DNA from: a virus
Length of the DNA stretch: 64,000 bases
Direction: 5' to 3' (one strand)
IMG/VR virus record: IMGVR_UViG_3300025736_000018
Location: 652-64,651 of that record
Both the position numbers and the translations under genes were made by a program. The stretch's first letter is position 1. The number at the start of each line of letters is the position of its first letter. The notes under the pieces are model-generated. The model was not told the DNA's origin and searched no databases. It was given only the letters and a program-made list of their open reading frames with translations. Below, piece after piece: positions 1,606 through 34,251 of this stretch.

Positions 1606-1681
1606 GTCCCTGTAGCTCAACTGGAAGAGTACTCGGCTACGAACTGAGAGGTTGAGAGTTCGAATCTTTCCAGGGATGCCA
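1606..1681 (+). tRNA. tRNA-Arg (anticodon ACG)
   Basis: 76-nt cloverleaf folded by hand: acceptor GTCCCTG/CAGGGAT, D-arm TAGCTCAACTGGAAGAGTA, anticodon loop CTACGAA, T-loop TTCGAAT, encoded CCA. Confidence 0.85.
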
Positions 1682-2097
1682 ATAAATTAAGGAAGTATAA
1701 AAATGAAAAATAAAGAAGATAAGACATATGAATTTTTACATTATCTAAAAACGTATTACCATATTGGTAAAAACTATGATTGACCTGTATTGTTTTTTAA
1801 GCAAAGTTATCCAGGAGATTAATCTGTAAACTTCTGCCCTGTTGTTGCAAAGTCACATAGGTTAGAAACAACTGATATTAATGATTTTGATGCAATTAGA
1901 AAAGAAATTGTGAAGCTTGTAACTGATATGTGTTTAAATAATTCTATGAATAACCCCGCTCCTTTGATTATTATTTCATTCTATGAATTGATAATATGGG
2001 AAGGATGTGATTTTGTAAATGCAAGGTTTGGAATGAGAACATCTTATGATGTACAAGTGATTCCATTTGAGAAGAGTGTCAATGAACAAAGTAATAA

Positions 2098-2173
2098 GCC
2101 GATATAGCTCAACTGGTAGAGCACTTGATTTGTAATCATGAGGTTGGGGACTCGGTTTCCTCTATCGGCTCCA
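2098..2173 (+). tRNA. tRNA-Thr (anticodon UGU), atypical T-loop
   Basis: acceptor GCCGATA/TATCGGC, D-arm TAGCTCAACTGGTAGAGCA, anticodon loop TTTGTAA, encoded CCA; T-loop CTCGGTT is non-canonical. Confidence 0.7.
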
Positions 2174-2191
2174 AATTTTAAGGAGGAATAA

Positions 2192-2413
2192 ATGATAGTT
2201 AAAAGATATTTAGTTAAAAACATCATAGATCATGGCTATCTTGGAAATGATTTTGATAGCTCTGGTAAAATCAGATTTGTAGCTCTCCTTTGGGCACGTG
2301 AATTTATCACTATCAGCGACGCAGAAAGTGAAATTGAATCAGTACTTAACGCAAGCGGAAATAAGTCTTTAACAATTGAAACGTTATATCGATGGGTTCC
2401 TAACGGATATTAA
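2192..2413 (+). CDS. hypothetical protein
   Basis: 73-aa ORF with GGAGG RBS. Confidence 0.45.
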   Translation: MIVKRYLVKNIIDHGYLGNDFDSSGKIRFVALLWAREFITISDAESEIESVLNASGNKSLTIETLYRWVPNGY

Positions 2414-2430
2414 ATTATAAAAAAATTAAC

Positions 2431-2519
2431 GGAGAGTTATCTTAATTGGCTAAAGAAGCAGGTTGCTAACCTGTGGCCGGGCAACCGGCCTGTGAGTTCG
2501 AGTCTCGCACTCTCCGCCA
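2431..2519 (+). tRNA. tRNA-Ser (anticodon GCU), type II
   Basis: acceptor GGAGAGT/ACTCTCC, anticodon loop TTGCTAA, long variable arm GGCCGGGCAACCGGCC, T-loop TTCGAGT, encoded CCA. Confidence 0.85.
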
Positions 2520-2541
2520 AATAAAAAGGAAAATTATATAT

Positions 2542-31211: not shown

Positions 31212-31245
31212 AATTAAAAGAAGAAAAAAGGAGAATAAAAAAAGA

Positions 31246-31446
31246 ATGTTACCATTATCAACATTTATAGTGATTATAGTCGTTATGTGGCTACTATGGA
31301 CATCTCGAGAAAAAATCACTATCTGGTTATCGACAAAAACAGAAGAGGAAAAACTTGATGAAGCACGTATCAAGTTAGAAAAAGAAAGGATAAAAAAGAA
31401 AATAAAGAAGCTCGAAAAAGAGCTCAAAAAAAGGAAGGTAAAGTAA
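31246..31446 (+). CDS. small membrane-anchored protein with K/E-rich tail
   Basis: N-terminal TM then EKERIKKKIKKLEKELKKRK. Confidence 0.4.
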   Translation: MLPLSTFIVIIVVMWLLWTSREKITIWLSTKTEEEKLDEARIKLEKERIKKKIKKLEKELKKRKVK

Positions 31447-32642
31447 TGGGTAAAGGCACAATTGCTGTAATTTTATTCGTAGTCGCAGCTATAGTATTAG
31501 TTGCATTAGCAGGAAGTTTAGTAGAAACAAACAATGCAGGTTATTACATCGTTAAACAGGCAGCTCTAACAGGTAATATGACAGTGAGAAATGAACCGGG
31601 AGTATTCCCACAATTTTTTGCTAAGTTAACAAAATATCAGATTTCTGATATGAGCTATTTTTCAAAGTCAGATCTCGACGGTGGAGTAGGTGAAGATTCA
31701 CAACCAATTAAAGTTAGATTCAACGATGGTGGTACTGCAGATATTTCTGGAGCTATTAAATTTAAGTTAAGTCAAAAAGAACAAGATGAGTTATCACTAC
31801 ATAGAGAATTTAAAAGTTACACTGCAATTCAGCAAGATTTAATTCGACAAGTAGTATCAGAAGCTCTTATGCAAACTGCTACATTAATGAAAGCTGAAGA
31901 ATCATATTCCACCAGACGTGCGGAATTTACTTCATTGGCAGAGAATCAAATTCGATTCGGAATTTATGAAACGGTTTCTGTTGAAAAGAAAGTTCAAGAT
32001 ACCGAAGGTAATGATTTTATCGAACGAGAAACTGTTTTAAAACTTACCAAAGACGGATTACCGATAGTAAGGAAAGAAAGTCCTTTTATAAGATATAATA
32101 TTTCGATTCTCCAGTTCATTATAAAAGAAATTGACTTTGATGCTACTATTGATAATTTAATTTCAAAGAAGAAAGAAGCTGAACAGCAAAAAGTTGTTGC
32201 TCGTGCTAATGCCGAAAGAGCAAAGCAGGATGCTATTACTGAGGAAGAAATGGGTAAAGCTCGTATAGCTAAAGCACAAGCAGACGAATTGGTTATTAAG
32301 ATCCAAGCTACTACTCAGGCACAAAAGAATTTTGAAGTTGCTGAGTGGAATAGAAAAGAAGCAATTGAAAAAGCAGCTGCTATCCTTGTAGAAAAAGAGA
32401 CTGAAGCTAAAGCAAATGCATTGCTTGTTAAAGCTGGTTTAACTCCTTTACTGAAAGCGCAAATTGATAAAGAAACTGCTATTGGTGTAGCACAAGCATT
32501 GTCGAAAGTCGTATTTCCAACTACAATGGTTCTAGGTCAGGGCGGAGATGGAACCAGTGCACTGAATCCGTTTGATGCAGTCGGACTTCAAAGTTTCATT
32601 GAAATTAGTAGAAATATGGCGAAATCTTCAGTAGGAAAATAG
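31446..32642 (+). CDS. SPFH/band-7 (flotillin-like) domain protein
   Basis: N-terminal TM helix, SPFH-like core, Ala/Glu/Lys-rich coiled-coil tail. Confidence 0.5.
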   Translation: MGKGTIAVILFVVAAIVLVALAGSLVETNNAGYYIVKQAALTGNMTVRNEPGVFPQFFAKLTKYQISDMSYFSKSDLDGGVGEDSQPIKVRFNDGGTADISGAIKFKLSQKEQDELSLHREFKSYTAIQQDLIRQVVSEALMQTATLMKAEESYSTRRAEFTSLAENQIRFGIYETVSVEKKVQDTEGNDFIERETVLKLTKDGLPIVRKESPFIRYNISILQFIIKEIDFDATIDNLISKKKEAEQQKVVARANAERAKQDAITEEEMGKARIAKAQADELVIKIQATTQAQKNFEVAEWNRKEAIEKAAAILVEKETEAKANALLVKAGLTPLLKAQIDKETAIGVAQALSKVVFPTTMVLGQGGDGTSALNPFDAVGLQSFIEISRNMAKSSVGK

Positions 32643-32680
32643 ATTAGTGTAATTGGTTTACATTCACACCGTAGGGGTGG

Positions 32681-32720
32681 GAGAGAAGGATTTTTGACAT
32701 GTTCCTTCTCTCTTTTTTTT
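32681..32720 (+). terminator. rho-independent terminator (conserved GAGAAGG type)
   Basis: GAGAGAAGGA-TTTTTGACATGT-TCCTTCTCTC then TTTTTTTT. Confidence 0.7.
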
Positions 32721-32728
32721 AAAAATAA

Positions 32729-32796
32729 GTTACTATTTTTTATAATTAGTTTATATTATATATATGAGATTAAAAAATAACTTGGAGGTTATTAAG
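32729..32796 (+). promoter_or_regulatory. reiterated promoter/leader cassette (copy)
   Basis: GTTACTATTTTTTATAATTAGTTTATATTATAT then AACTTGGAGGTTATTAAG-ATG. Confidence 0.55.
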
Positions 32797-34251
32797 ATGG
32801 TTAGTATTAAGAAAAAAATTATAATGACAGAAGATATTAGAGTACTAAAAGGTGTCTTTAATGTTAAAGGTCGTCAACTATTTCTAGTAGGCGGAGCTGT
32901 TAGAGATCTGGTTCTTGGAAATGAGCCGCATGATTATGATTTTGCCACTGACGCAACTCCGGCGGAAATGTTAGGTTGGAATTGCGTACTATCAGAGGAT
33001 AAGGCATTATATAAAGTAATTGATACTGGCTCAGCATTTGGTACTGTAACATTTATAATGATTGGAGTGAGTGGTTCAATATTTGAAATTACAACTTTCA
33101 GAACTGATCATAATTGTGACGGGCGTCATACAGATGTTAAGTTTGCAAAGACAATTGAAGAAGACTTATCCCGAAGAGATTTTACAATCAATGCAATGGC
33201 AATTGATATGAACTATCCTGATGTAATTATTGACCCATTTAATGGGCAAAGCGATCTTAAAAATAAAATTATAAAAACTGTTGGAAATGCCACTGAAAGA
33301 TTCGAAGAAGATACTCTGAGAGTAATCAGAGGATTTAGATTTGCAGCAAGATATGATTTCAAGATTGATTTTTATACTATAGATGCTATGATGCAAGCAA
33401 TTTTACTTGCTGATAATATTAGTAAGGAAAGAATTAAAGATGAAATTATTAAAGCTGCAAGTAGTAAAAATTTCTCTAATTTTATTCGCATTGCGGAAAG
33501 CATCGACTGGTTAAATTTTATGTTTGGATATAATATTAATCATTTAAAGCAGATGCCGCTAAACAAATATCATACTGACAATGCTCTTATACATACTTTA
33601 AAAGTTGTTGATAAGGTAGAAGATAATGGCGGAGGTGCTTTAGAAAAGATAGCAGCACTCCTACACGATATTGGAAAGATAGATACAGTAGCAGCTGGAG
33701 AAGACGGGATGTTTCATTTTCGTAAGCATGAATTAGTTGGCGCTCAGATAGCAAAAACTATATTAGAAGGACTTAGGTTTTCTAACAATGATGTTGACTA
33801 TATCACTTTCTTAGTCGAAAATCATATGTATGTAAAGTCCTGGAAAGATGAAGTTATTGTTAAGGATTCATCTATTAGAAAATTAATAAGAAGAATGAAG
33901 CACCTAGATGATCTTTTAAGACTTGTAGATGCAGATAATAAATCACATCATCCTGATTGGATAATGGAGAATCAAGTAAGTAATATCTATAAGAGAATTG
34001 AACAATTGAAAGATGAAGGTACAGATAAGATTAATATTCCAGTTGATGGAAATGATATTATGGAAGTTCTTGATATTAAGCCAGGTAAAGTAGTTGGAGA
34101 GATTCTTCGAAGAATCGAAAATTATATGTTAGAGTTTCCAGATACTACAAGAAAAAATGTTATGGTTGGTTTACTTAATACGAAAGCAGAATGTAATTGG
34201 AATTTTGATGAAATGGAAAGAAAATTAAGAGAGGTAAAAGATAATGTATAA
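32797..34251 (+). CDS. cca: tRNA nucleotidyltransferase (CCA-adding enzyme) with HD domain
   Basis: LFLVGGAVRDLVLG, RRDFTINAMA, HD motif LLHDIGK. Confidence 0.85.
   Translation: MVSIKKKIIMTEDIRVLKGVFNVKGRQLFLVGGAVRDLVLGNEPHDYDFATDATPAEMLGWNCVLSEDKALYKVIDTGSAFGTVTFIMIGVSGSIFEITTFRTDHNCDGRHTDVKFAKTIEEDLSRRDFTINAMAIDMNYPDVIIDPFNGQSDLKNKIIKTVGNATERFEEDTLRVIRGFRFAARYDFKIDFYTIDAMMQAILLADNISKERIKDEIIKAASSKNFSNFIRIAESIDWLNFMFGYNINHLKQMPLNKYHTDNALIHTLKVVDKVEDNGGGALEKIAALLHDIGKIDTVAAGEDGMFHFRKHELVGAQIAKTILEGLRFSNNDVDYITFLVENHMYVKSWKDEVIVKDSSIRKLIRRMKHLDDLLRLVDADNKSHHPDWIMENQVSNIYKRIEQLKDEGTDKINIPVDGNDIMEVLDIKPGKVVGEILRRIENYMLEFPDTTRKNVMVGLLNTKAECNWNFDEMERKLREVKDNV

What the first reader, a model, noticed from the sequence alone, without database searches (positions are those of the whole stretch)
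1606..34251. Concentrated RNA-repair and translation-rescue arsenal
The first 34 kb contains RtcB (24493-25695), a second RNA-ligase-like protein (6086-7252), a CCA-adding enzyme with HD domain (32797-34251), a PTH2-like peptidyl-tRNA hydrolase domain (3731-4357), an RlmN-like radical SAM enzyme (20676-21677), nine tRNAs and the tmRNA. RtcB, the CCA-adding enzyme and spare tRNAs are the known components needed to reverse anticodon-nuclease and tRNA 3'-end attacks such as PrrC, VapC, Retron-Eco7, PARIS and colicin-type toxins. This looks like an unusually complete anti-tRNA-cleavage toolkit.
Basis: partly seen in the sequence, partly recalled or inferred. Interest (0 to 1): 0.6.

Follow-up and report, generated by a model that had tools for sequence, protein, structure and literature searches.

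The report
Phage tRNA supply and repair block
A large AT-rich phage that reads TGA as tryptophan carries at least 18 tRNAs, a tmRNA, two RNA ligases and a CCA-adding enzyme among its early genes, which is an already described kind of phage kit, but its PTH2-like gene belongs to a family that almost always sits beside an amber-suppressor tRNA, a link I could not find reported.

Summary
Most listed parts are real and at the stated coordinates. These are RtcB, an Rnl5-type ATP RNA ligase, a class II CCA-adding enzyme with an intact HD domain, a PTH2-fold domain, nine tRNAs and a tmRNA.

Corrections:
- The radical SAM protein is only distantly related to RlmN/Cfr. Its relatives sit in phage replication and DNA-methylase modules, not RNA-repair ones.
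- One of the "spare" tRNAs is an amber suppressor (anticodon CUA).
- The tRNA array continues about 8.7 kb upstream, giving at least 18 tRNAs.
- A cREC cyclic-phosphate esterase at 35001-35444 was missed.
- No polynucleotide kinase/phosphatase (Pnkp) is present.

The phage tRNA anticodons match its favoured A-ending codons. No Lys or Tyr tRNA was seen. This kind of kit is already described for jumbo phages, so the "unusually complete anti-cleavage toolkit" reading is only partly supported. It is a new member of a known kind.

Two things go beyond the finding:
- The window uses TGA as Trp, rarely in the first 36 kb and heavily after 51.8 kb.
- The PTH2-like family is tightly linked to tRNA(CUA). 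In 72 of 83 loci the tRNA lies within 1 kb, against 0 of 33 control loci. Four further loci from other collections all show it. No paper in the searched library mentions this.

The parts
1606..1681 (+). tRNA-Arg(ACG), CCA encoded
   Evidence: ARAGORN; Rfam 58.3 bits; 3' end read
2098..2173 (+). tRNA-Thr(UGU), CCA encoded; reads ACA, which makes up 49% of Thr codons
2431..2519 (+). tRNA-Ser(GCU), CCA encoded
2867..2894 (+). Promoter-like motif TTACTATTTT-N12-TATATT at the head of the unit that holds tRNA-Ile(UAU), the PTH2-like gene and the suppressor tRNA. Further copies lie at 5588, 8044, 9934, 12820, 14484, 17413, 23370, 25704, 28212, 32730, 34953 and elsewhere.
   Evidence: 20 matches against 2.3 expected, all on the + strand
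3182..3257 (+). tRNA-Ile(UAU), CCA encoded; reads ATA, which makes up 42% of Ile codons
3731..4357 (+). Two-domain protein: an N-terminal helical domain (residues 1-98) and a C-terminal PTH2-fold domain (about residues 108-208). It ends 21 nt before the suppressor tRNA.
4378..4452 (+). Amber-suppressor tRNA (anticodon CUA), class I, CCA encoded
   Evidence: ARAGORN; Rfam tRNA 61.4 bits
5483..5568 (+). tRNA-Ser(UGA), CCA encoded
6086..7252 (+). ATP-dependent RNA ligase of the Rnl5 (DraRnl/NgrRnl) type: an N-terminal OB domain plus a nucleotidyltransferase domain
   Evidence: PF21189 92.7 bits and PF09414 56.6 bits. TIGR02306 130 bits, below its 151-bit cut-off. phrog_968 E = 9e-58. Naegleria RNA ligase structures E = 3e-25.
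9083..9456 (+). tmRNA with tag ANNLQLAA. The tag frame ends in TAG. CCA is encoded.
   Evidence: ARAGORN; Rfam RF00023 121.4 bits; sequence
9846..9920 (+). tRNA-Trp(CCA)
10174..10248 (+). tRNA-Ile(GAU)
12592..12667 (+). tRNA-Val(UAC); reads GTA, which makes up 45% of Val codons
20676..21686 (+). Radical SAM protein of a large, highly conserved phage family. It is only distantly related to RlmN/Cfr and probably does not belong to the RNA kit. The first stop is TGA at 21675-21677, followed by TAA at 21684-21686.
24493..25695 (+). RtcB RNA ligase (joins a 3'-phosphate or 2',3'-cyclic phosphate to a 5'-OH), with all catalytic residues conserved. It lies in the unit headed by the promoter motif at 23370.
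32797..34251 (+). Class II CCA-adding enzyme with an HD phosphohydrolase domain. The ORF opens at 32764. A promoter motif lies at 32730-32757.
35001..35444 (+). cREC (cyclic-phosphate processing receiver) domain protein, a predicted 2',3'-cyclic phosphoesterase. It has its own promoter motif at 34953.
   Evidence: PF20274 67.1 bits against a cut-off of 27. Role taken from PMC7824862.

Best explanation
This is the early-gene translation-maintenance block of a large, 30% G+C phage that reads TGA as Trp. Its genes are almost free of in-frame TGA. It works in three ways.

**1. Supply.** At least 18 phage tRNAs have anticodons that match the phage's favoured A-ending codons. They keep decoding going when the host tRNA pool is ill-suited, degraded or cleaved.

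**2. Repair.**
- RtcB rejoins RNA ends that carry a 2',3'-cyclic or 3'-phosphate and a 5'-OH.
- The Rnl5-type ligase seals 3'-OH/5'-phosphate nicks in duplex RNA, such as tRNA stems.
- Together the two ligases cover both break chemistries without a kinase/phosphatase.
- The cREC protein and the HD domain of the CCA enzyme clear cyclic phosphates.
- The CCA enzyme rebuilds damaged 3' ends.

**3. Rescue.**
- The tmRNA frees stalled ribosomes.
- The PTH2-fold protein, encoded next to the amber-suppressor tRNA, most likely hydrolyses the ester bond of peptidyl- or aminoacyl-tRNA. The suppressor tRNA is its probable client.

**Shown here:** domain identities, conserved catalytic residues, gene positions, the shared promoter motif, the codon-anticodon match and the PTH2-suppressor linkage.

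**Inferred:** the substrates, the timing of expression, and any role against host tRNA nucleases.
For: **Enzyme identities and active sites:**

**Repair rather than maturation**
- All 9 window tRNAs and the tmRNA encode CCA, as do 8 of the 9 upstream tRNAs.
- No HDV-like ribozyme was found next to the tRNAs.

**Physical association**
- The PTH2-like gene and the ligase lie inside the tRNA array.
- Every part sits behind the same promoter-like motif.
- The block is kept in the same order in related strains from several samples.

**Recurrence elsewhere**
- 9 of 33 phage loci with RtcB relatives hold tRNAs within 10 kb. Two hold an Rnl5-like ligase, two a CCA enzyme and one a cREC protein.

**Literature**
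- The same combination is described as jumbo-phage RNA repair and ribosome rescue in PMC7824862.
- Phage tRNAs defeat PARIS, Retron-Eco7 and PrrC (PMC11464382, PMC11555353, PMC12409363).
- AriB nicks a tRNA stem and leaves 3'-OH/5'-phosphate ends. This is the end chemistry an Rnl5-type ligase uses (established biochemistry of DraRnl and NgrRnl).

**Supply**
- tRNAs with U34 match the top codons: AGA 0.64, TTA 0.48, ACA 0.49, CCA 0.50, GTA 0.45, ATA 0.42, CAA 0.81.

**PTH2-suppressor link:**
Against: - There are no experimental data, and the host is unknown.
- No Pnkp-type healing enzyme, archease or RtcA was found.
- tRNAs for Lys, Tyr, Asn and Asp, the best-known defence targets, are absent from the 18 seen. 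Codon usage alone can explain the set.
- RtcB and the CCA enzyme are 12-20 kb from the tRNAs, interleaved with NAD salvage, ThyX and many unknown genes under the same promoter motif. The "block" may simply be the early gene class.
- The CCA enzyme and the DRB0094-type ligase are strongly enriched in recoded gut phages. There they are proposed to mature the phage's own tRNAs (PMC10879173).
- The PTH2-like family lacks the catalytic Lys of Pth2, carrying Gln instead. Hydrolase activity is therefore not assured.
Confidence: 0.55

Rival explanations
1. Pure housekeeping for the phage's own decoding system. The tRNAs exist to serve an AT-rich, TGA-recoded genome. The CCA enzyme, the Rnl5-type ligase, cREC and RtcB mature or maintain phage tRNAs, including suppressors. 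There is no role against host nucleases.
For: - The match between anticodons and favoured codons is tight.
- The window is TGA-recoded, with early genes compatible with the standard code. This fits the model of the Borges et al. preprint (10.1101/2021.08.26.457843).
- "tRNA adenylyltransferase" is 250-fold enriched and the DRB0094 RNA ligase 140-fold enriched in phages that carry tRNA-linked theta ribozymes (PMC10879173).
- The PTH2-like gene is tied to a suppressor tRNA.
Against: - 17 of the 18 tRNAs already encode CCA, so CCA addition is not needed to mature them.
- No HDV-like ribozyme was detected in 1-14000.
- RtcB has no known role in bacterial tRNA maturation when the tRNA genes have no introns (established knowledge).
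- The tRNA genes here are continuous.
Confidence: 0.3
2. There is no functional unit. The parts are independent accessory genes that accumulate in the early region of large phages, so their proximity carries no meaning.
For: - The same promoter motif also heads the NAD-salvage, ThyX, SPFH and many unknown genes.
- RtcB relatives in other phages mostly lack the other parts within 10 kb.
- The radical SAM gene travels alone.
Against: - The PTH2-like gene and the ligase are embedded in the tRNA array.
- The PTH2-suppressor linkage is conserved across 38 protein clusters (p = 2.5e-12).
- cREC, the CCA enzyme and the ligases co-occur in many phages according to PMC7824862.
Confidence: 0.12

Closest known systems
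Jumbo-phage RNA repair and ribosome-rescue systems (Iyer, Anantharaman, Krishnan, Burroughs and Aravind 2021, PMC7824862, section 3.4.9)
   Same: It has the same parts list: a phage tRNA array, RtcB and/or ATP-grasp RNA ligases, a CCA-adding enzyme, a cREC phosphoesterase and PTH2. It also fits the same proposed purpose.
   Different: - No Pnkp, HAD phosphatase or RlaP nucleotidyltransferase is present.
- The ATP ligase is Rnl5-type, not Rnl1 or Rnl2.
- The phage here is TGA-recoded.
- The PTH2 gene is coupled to an amber-suppressor tRNA, which that survey does not mention.
Phage T4 Pnkp plus Rnl1 repair of PrrC-cleaved tRNA-Lys
   Same: The logic is the same: phage enzymes reseal a tRNA cut by a host nuclease (established knowledge, summarised).
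   Different: The chemistry differs. Here RtcB seals directly, and a nick-sealing ligase is present without a kinase/phosphatase. No tRNA-Lys gene was seen.
Mycobacterium phages of the Myrna/Phabba type
   Same: Phabba has a CCA tRNA nucleotidyltransferase, two peptidyl-tRNA hydrolases (one inside the tRNA array), an RF1-like factor and many tRNAs within 33 kb. The Myrna peptidyl-tRNA hydrolase matches the fold of the window protein.
   Different: - The host is high-G+C and the phage uses the standard code.
- Sequence relatedness is under 31% for the CCA enzyme.
- The tRNA next to the Phabba hydrolase gene is ambiguous: CUA by ARAGORN, Arg(UCU) in GenBank.
Stop-codon-recoded phages (Borges et al. 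preprint 10.1101/2021.08.26.457843; theta-ribozyme phages, PMC10879173)
   Same: - TGA is read as Trp, mostly in later genes.
- Early genes are compatible with the standard code.
- Suppressor tRNAs are present.
- The CCA enzyme and the DRB0094 ligase are enriched in such phages.
   Different: - The suppressor found here reads TAG, not the recoded TGA.
- No tRNA(UCA), release factor or TrpRS was seen in the window.
- The tRNAs encode CCA and lack theta ribozymes.
Archaeal and eukaryotic peptidyl-tRNA hydrolase Pth2 (PF01981)
   Different: - The catalytic Lys is replaced by Gln.
- The Asp of the RDAG motif aligns with Glu of the EPD motif.
- The family is about 100 aa long and found in phages.
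- It is often paired or fused with a helical domain carrying the motif YRHxHIAYCLxRGRxxEQIE.
- It is linked to tRNA(CUA).
RlmN/Cfr radical SAM RNA methyltransferases
   Same: The CX3CX2C cluster motif and the first half of the barrel are homologous (hhalign 95.7% probability). RlmN and Cfr are the only matches at the level of PDB sequences.
   Different: - There is no equivalent of Cys118; the position is Thr74.
- There is no match to the N-terminal domain.
- C-terminal similarity is not significant.
- Scores are far below the family cut-offs.
- The genomic context is DNA replication and methylation.

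Membership tests
RtcB (PF01139) | Full-length domain match above the curated threshold | tested here: met
   397.8 bits against a cut-off of 27, covering profile positions 1-426 of 426
RtcB (PF01139) | Metal ligands and the GMP-accepting histidine (E. coli D75, C78, N167, H168, H185, H281, H337; residue list recalled from the literature) | tested here: met
   All lie in invariant columns of the pairwise alignment with E. coli RtcB, at 43% identity
RtcB (PF01139) | GTP- and Mn-dependent joining of 3'-phosphate or 2',3'-cyclic phosphate to 5'-OH | not testable with these tools
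   Needs biochemistry
Rnl5 RNA ligase (DraRnl/NgrRnl, TIGR02306) | N-terminal OB domain followed by a nucleotidyltransferase domain | tested here: met
   PF21189 at residues 6-95 and PF09414 at residues 192-361. Naegleria RNA ligase structures match at E = 3e-25.
Rnl5 RNA ligase (DraRnl/NgrRnl, TIGR02306) | Score above the equivalog cut-off | tested here: not met
   130.4 bits against a cut-off of 151.15. It is a divergent relative, best placed in phrog_968.
Rnl5 RNA ligase (DraRnl/NgrRnl, TIGR02306) | Motif I lysine (KxDG) and motifs III-V | tested here: inconclusive
   Read by eye: KLEG, GEIVG, EGCVW and FKAKS are present. No formal alignment was made.
Class II CCA-adding enzyme | Head-domain motifs A-D, including DxD and EDxxR | tested here: met
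   GGAVRD...DYD, RRDFTINA and EEDTLR align with the E. coli Cca motifs. PF01743 scores 112.7 bits.
Class II CCA-adding enzyme | CCA specificity, as opposed to A-adding, CC-adding or poly(A) polymerase activity | not testable with these tools
   The best models are CCA equivalogs, but all score below their cut-offs (254.5 against 438.8)
Class II CCA-adding enzyme | HD phosphohydrolase domain with the His-Asp dyad | tested here: met
   PF01966 scores 31.8 bits. LLHDIGK aligns with E. coli LCHDLGK.
Pth2 peptidyl-tRNA hydrolase (PF01981) | PTH2 fold | tested here: met
Pth2 peptidyl-tRNA hydrolase (PF01981) | Sequence match above the Pfam gathering score | tested here: not met
   The window protein scores 20.9-22 bits against a cut-off of 23. 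However, 23 of 33 family members match PTH2 (best 2.4e-11), and the family profile matches Pth2 structures at E = 2.7e-8.
Pth2 peptidyl-tRNA hydrolase (PF01981) | Catalytic Lys and Asp (S. solfataricus K18 and D86; recalled from the literature) | tested here: not met
   The Lys of GKGK aligns with Gln of SQQAVQAGHA. The Asp of RDAG aligns with Glu75 of the nearly invariant EPD motif.
RlmN/Cfr | CX3CX2C radical SAM motif | tested here: met
   C81, C85 and C88 are invariant
RlmN/Cfr | Two mechanistic cysteines (E. coli C118 and C355) | tested here: not met
   The C118 position is Thr74, which is invariant. Cys323 in ITCGNA resembles the C355 context, but the C-terminal similarity is not significant (108 of 500 shuffles reach the observed score).
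RlmN/Cfr | Score above the family cut-offs and whole-length homology | tested here: not met
   TIGR00048 scores 36 bits against a cut-off of 290. hhalign covers residues 65-212 only. The best Foldseek matches are LipA and MiaB, at TM 0.46.
tmRNA (RF00023) | Covariance-model match and a tag reading frame | tested here: met
   121.4 bits against a cut-off of 47. ARAGORN gives the tag ANNLQLAA.
cREC cyclic-phosphate processing domain (PF20274) | Domain match above threshold | tested here: met
   67.1 bits against a cut-off of 27
TGA-to-Trp recoded phage (code 4) | In-frame TGA in conserved genes, standing for Trp | tested here: met
   - In-frame TGA occurs in DnaE, ThyX and the glycosyltransferases.
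- TGG plus TGA makes up 1.58% of codons early and 1.54% late, while TGA rises from 0.15% to 1.20%.
- Coding coverage of the late part rises from 0.57 to 0.90 under code 4.
TGA-to-Trp recoded phage (code 4) | Phage-encoded tRNA(UCA) suppressor | tested here: not met
   None was found in the window or in the 8.7 kb upstream. The rest of the genome was not available.

The most novel reading that the evidence does not exclude
The PTH2-like gene is not a general ribosome-rescue factor. It is one half of a conserved phage module: a small PTH2-fold esterase plus an amber-suppressor tRNA(CUA). A helical partner domain is often present too, either fused or encoded as an overlapping upstream gene.

The esterase would act on the charged or peptidyl form of that suppressor. 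It could recycle the tRNA after drop-off, proofread its charging, or gate when UAG read-through begins. That would make it a previously unrecognised component of phage stop-codon reassignment machinery.

In this phage the module is present even though TAG still ends genes in the 64 kb seen. The suppressor may therefore have a target other than recoded phage genes, for example host stop codons or the TAG that ends the phage tmRNA tag frame.
Probability: 0.4. Interest if true: 0.75.

Novelty: new member of a known kind. Interest (0 to 1): 0.45.

Why it matters
**The block as a whole.** It is one more example of how large phages carry their own means of keeping translation running. It does not change the current picture.

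**Two points that make open questions testable**
- **Two ligases without a kinase/phosphatase.** RtcB handles cyclic-phosphate/5'-OH breaks, and the Rnl5-type ligase handles 3'-OH/5'-phosphate nicks. Such nicks are what the Toprim nuclease AriB of PARIS leaves in a tRNA stem. So a phage may reverse this class of defence by direct resealing, not only by supplying decoy tRNAs.
- **The PTH2-suppressor link.** The near-obligate linkage gives a concrete candidate protein for how phages control or service suppressor tRNAs during code switching. That step is currently explained only by tRNA abundance, release factors and ribozymes.

Tried and rejected
- **TAG recoding in the window: rejected.**
  - Reading through TAG joins no long ORFs.
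  - The four same-frame small ORFs after the suppressor tRNA each have their own Shine-Dalgarno sequence and ATG at a repeated stop-AAA-ATG junction.
- **TGA read as Gly (code 25): rejected.** Trp codon frequency stays constant only if TGA is Trp.
- **Theta or HDV-like ribozymes next to the tRNAs: none found** by a permissive Rfam scan of 1-14000.
- **Close relatives of the phage.**
  - No near DNA match in INPHARED.
  - No relative of the CCA enzyme in IMG/VR by the peptide-pattern search.
  - RtcB relatives are at most 60% identical.
- **Host inference from the tmRNA tag.** A degenerate scan of 185,579 genomes gave 4 hits, which is the number I estimated by hand for chance.
- **Pnkp, archease, RtcA or a release factor in 1-36 kb: none.** This rests on Pfam and PHROGs scans and on precomputed Pfam hits.
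- **RlmN C-terminal cysteine.** Neither a short-query search nor a shuffle test supported homology.
- **Amino-acid identity of the suppressor tRNAs.** Nearest-isotype comparison gave no strong match.
- **Code usage in the 8-kb PTH2 loci.** The measure was too noisy to say whether those phages are TAG-recoded.
- **N-domain placement.** My automatic fused/adjacent classification is unreliable, so I used the manual reading instead.

Full report
**What the window is**

The window is 30% G+C, and almost all ORFs lie on the + strand. It has no near DNA match among 50,697 deposited phage genomes. The same sequence occurs in many metagenome samples on contigs of 50-200 kb, with the same gene order.

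It encodes typical large-phage functions. These include a DnaE-type polymerase, ThyX, dUTPase, a PD-(D/E)XK nuclease, a preQ0 pathway and glycosyltransferases.

**Genetic code**

Standard-code ORF calling breaks genes after about 37 kb. TGA lies in frame inside the DnaE N-terminus, ThyX and the glycosyltransferases, at positions that read well as Trp.

| Region | TGA : TGG |
|---|---|
| 1-36 kb | 15 : 148 |
| 36-48 kb | 17 : 32 |
| 51.8-64 kb | 46 : 13 |

TGG plus TGA stays at 1.58% and 1.54% of codons in the early and late regions. That fits TGA read as Trp, not Gly. Under code 4, 91% of the window is coding.

This is the pattern published for TGA-recoded phages whose early genes remain readable by a standard-code host. 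The finding's region is therefore the part of the genome that is nearly free of in-frame TGA.

**Checking each part**

- **RtcB** is unambiguous, and every catalytic residue of E. coli RtcB is conserved.
- **The second ligase** has the OB-plus-nucleotidyltransferase layout of the DraRnl/NgrRnl (Rnl5) type.
- **The CCA enzyme** keeps the DxD, RRD and EDxxR motifs and the HD dyad.
- **A cREC protein** lies 750 bp downstream of the CCA gene (PF20274, 67 bits). Published work assigns this domain to cyclic-phosphate clearing in RNA repair.
- **The nine tRNAs and the tmRNA** are confirmed.
- **The tRNA array** continues upstream of the window. A 97%-identical strain carries nine more there: three Leu, plus Gln, Cys, Arg-UCU, Pro, Met and His.
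- **CCA ends.** All nine window tRNAs and the tmRNA encode CCA, as do eight of the nine upstream tRNAs. No HDV-like ribozyme flanks them.

**The radical SAM protein**

- It has the CX3CX2C motif, and its only sequence-level relatives of known structure are RlmN and Cfr.
- Homology covers just the first half of the barrel.
- The RlmN Cys118 position is an invariant Thr.
- Scores are far below the family cut-offs, and the predicted fold matches LipA and MiaB best.
- The family is very large: more than 7,000 homologues, with the listed relatives 63-73% identical to the query.
- Its members sit in replication and DNA-methylase modules of other phages and a prophage.

I do not count it as part of the RNA kit.

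**Layout and regulation**

A motif, TTACTATTTT-N12-TA(T/A)ATT, occurs 20 times against 2.3 expected. Nineteen of the 20 copies are on the + strand, as are all 16 exact copies, and they lie between genes.

Copies head the units that hold:
- the PTH2-like gene and the suppressor tRNA (2867);
- the ligase (5588);
- the tmRNA (8044);
- RtcB (23370);
- the CCA enzyme (32730);
- cREC (34953).

Copies also head the NAD-salvage, ThyX and many unknown genes. The parts probably share a temporal class, but they are not one operon. PTH2 and the ligase are inside the tRNA array. RtcB and the CCA enzyme are 12-20 kb away.

**tRNAs: defence or supply**

The phage favours A-ending codons. It carries U34 tRNAs for AGA, TTA, CTA, ACA, CCA, GTA, ATA, CAA and TCA.

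Known defence targets are:
- Lys for PrrC and PARIS;
- Tyr for Retron-Eco7;
- Thr(UGU) and Asn for PARIS.

Of these, only Thr(UGU) is among the 18 tRNAs seen. Codon supply therefore explains the set well. A defence-evasion role is neither shown nor excluded.

**How common the kit is**

- RtcB is found in 690 phage records and CCA-like enzymes in 508.
- Among 33 phage loci with RtcB relatives, nine have tRNAs within 10 kb. Two have an Rnl5-like ligase, two a CCA enzyme and one a cREC protein.
- Mycobacterium phage Phabba has a CCA enzyme, two peptidyl-tRNA hydrolases, an RF1-like factor and a tRNA array within 33 kb.
- Caulobacter phage CcrColossus has RtcB beside an HD phosphohydrolase and a phosphoesterase, near NAD-salvage genes.
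- The combination and its interpretation are laid out in PMC7824862.
- The CCA enzyme and the DRB0094 ligase are reported as enriched 250-fold and 140-fold in recoded gut phages.

The block is therefore a new member of a known kind.

**Mechanism**

RtcB seals ends that carry a cyclic phosphate and a 5'-OH. The Rnl5-type ligase seals 3'-OH/5'-phosphate nicks in duplex RNA (established biochemistry).

AriB of PARIS nicks a tRNA stem between nucleotides 40 and 41, leaving exactly those ends. The two ligases therefore cover both chemistries, which may explain why no kinase/phosphatase is present. This step is inference.

**The PTH2-like gene**

The window protein has few close homologues. Its C-terminal half folds as Pth2. 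In the first three contexts I examined, the gene lay next to a tRNA with anticodon CUA.

A profile search of IMG/VR returned 80 further loci. Adding the window and the two earlier loci gives 83.

| Measure | Result |
|---|---|
| Loci holding a tRNA(CUA) | 75 of 83 |
| Loci with tRNA(CUA) within 1 kb, usually just downstream on the same strand | 72 of 83 |
| Protein clusters (60% identity) with tRNA(CUA) within 1 kb | 29 of 38 |
| Distinct linked suppressor tRNA sequences | 55 |
| Loci where it is the only tRNA in 8 kb | 23 |
| Loci with tRNA(UCA) instead | 1 |
| Control: tRNA(CUA) in 33 RtcB loci | 0 |
| Fisher p, per locus / per cluster | 8e-20 / 2.5e-12 |

Four further family members, taken from other collections, all have a tRNA(CUA) 37-1,700 nt downstream.

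In the reverse direction, samples drawn by arbitrary pattern scans gave these results:
- 17 of 58 class I phage tRNA(CUA) genes have the PTH2-like domain within 2.5 kb.
- 3 of 38 long-arm tRNA(CUA) genes have it.

The N-terminal helical domain is fused in the window and in some other loci. In many others it is a separate overlapping upstream gene.

With 33 diverse members, the family matches Pth2 structures over the full length at E = 2.7e-8, and 23 of 33 members match Pfam PTH2. The Pth2 catalytic Lys is replaced by Gln, and the Asp aligns with Glu of a nearly invariant EPD motif.

No paper in the searchable library mentions PTH2, or a peptidyl-tRNA hydrolase, together with phage suppressor tRNAs.

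**What stays open**

- TAG still ends 24 of 117 genes in the window, and no in-frame TAG was found. What the amber suppressor decodes in this TGA-recoded phage is unknown.
- The tRNA that reads TGA was not found.
- The host is unknown.
- The IMG/VR loci are partly redundant. tRNA calls rest on ARAGORN.

**Verdict**

"Unusually complete" is not supported. The most interesting result is the conserved pairing of a PTH2-fold protein with amber-suppressor tRNAs.

Noticed in passing
Whole window; clearest at 51813-63074, and also at 22624-23277 (ThyX) and 43161 (DnaE): TGA is read as Trp. It is rare in the first 36 kb (15 TGA against 148 TGG) and dominant after 51.8 kb (46 against 13). Standard-code ORF lists truncate many genes. 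DnaE probably starts near 43089, not 43239.
   Followed up: yes
Window 4378-4452: This is an amber (CUA) suppressor tRNA in a phage whose recoded stop is TGA. TAG still terminates 24 of 117 genes in the window, and no tRNA(UCA) was found in the window or in the 8.7 kb upstream.
   Followed up: partly
Window 16754-20479: An NAD salvage cluster: a nicotinamidase-like isochorismatase (16754-17401), an unknown zinc-ribbon protein (17482-18102), NAPRTase (18102-19286) and NAD synthase (19631-20479). It looks like a Preiss-Handler-type route and could counter NAD-depleting defences. Caulobacter phage CcrColossus likewise has Nampt- and Nmnat-like genes about 6 kb from its RtcB (L061).
   Followed up: partly
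Window 36683-42318: A 7-deazaguanine (preQ0) pathway: QueD (36683-37063), QueE (37044-37718), QueC (38372-39091) and FolE2 (41368-42318). With it are a dUTPase, an AAA_28 P-loop protein (40834-41361) and two unknown proteins (39210-40833) that could include the transglycosylase. It is probably a DNA modification system.
   Followed up: no
Window, 20 sites, e.g. 2867, 5588, 8044, 9934, 12820, 14484, 17413, 23370, 28212, 32730, 34953, 39118, 42327, 47739, 49794, 58135: A strongly conserved promoter-like motif, TTACTATTTT-N12-TA(T/A)ATT, with 20 matches against 2.3 expected. Most copies are in the first 50 kb and only one lies after 50 kb.
   Followed up: partly
Window 9184-9210, within the tmRNA at 9083-9456: The tmRNA tag frame (ANNLQLAA) ends in TAG, the codon read by the phage's own suppressor tRNA. 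Read-through would extend the tag by five residues (X-SAGN) and bury the LAA degradation signal. A related phage's tmRNA tag also ends in ...ALQLAA (L062).
   Followed up: no
Window 20676-21686; relatives in L002, L048, L049: The radical SAM family is very large and very conserved: more than 7,000 homologues, with the listed relatives 63-73% identical to the query. Beyond the cluster motif, Cys183, Cys276 and Cys323 are invariant. Its function is unknown, and it sits in phage replication and DNA-methylase modules.
   Followed up: partly
Window 13441-13893 and 11466-12224: An RNaseH_like (PF04308) protein containing one in-frame TGA, and a weak match to the nucleoside 2-deoxyribosyltransferase family. 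Both lie at the end of the tRNA region and their roles are unknown.
   Followed up: no
Window 4474-5472: Four small ORFs in the same reading frame are joined by a repeated junction: a stop codon, then AAA or GAA, then ATG, with a Shine-Dalgarno sequence inside the preceding gene. It looks like read-through but is better explained as tightly packed separate genes.
   Followed up: yes
L387 500-692 (Mycobacterium phage Phabba 32799-32991): The Phabba peptidyl-tRNA hydrolase gene is followed by a tRNA annotated as "undetermined". After that comes a tRNA with a 9-nt anticodon loop (CTTCTAAAC), which GenBank calls Arg(UCU) and ARAGORN calls CUA. This may be a cultured-phage case of the PTH2-suppressor pairing.
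   Followed up: partly
Window 31446-32642: An SPFH/Band_7 membrane protein gene lies directly upstream of the CCA enzyme gene. One IMG/VR locus with an RtcB relative also holds an SPFH relative (L038).
   Followed up: no
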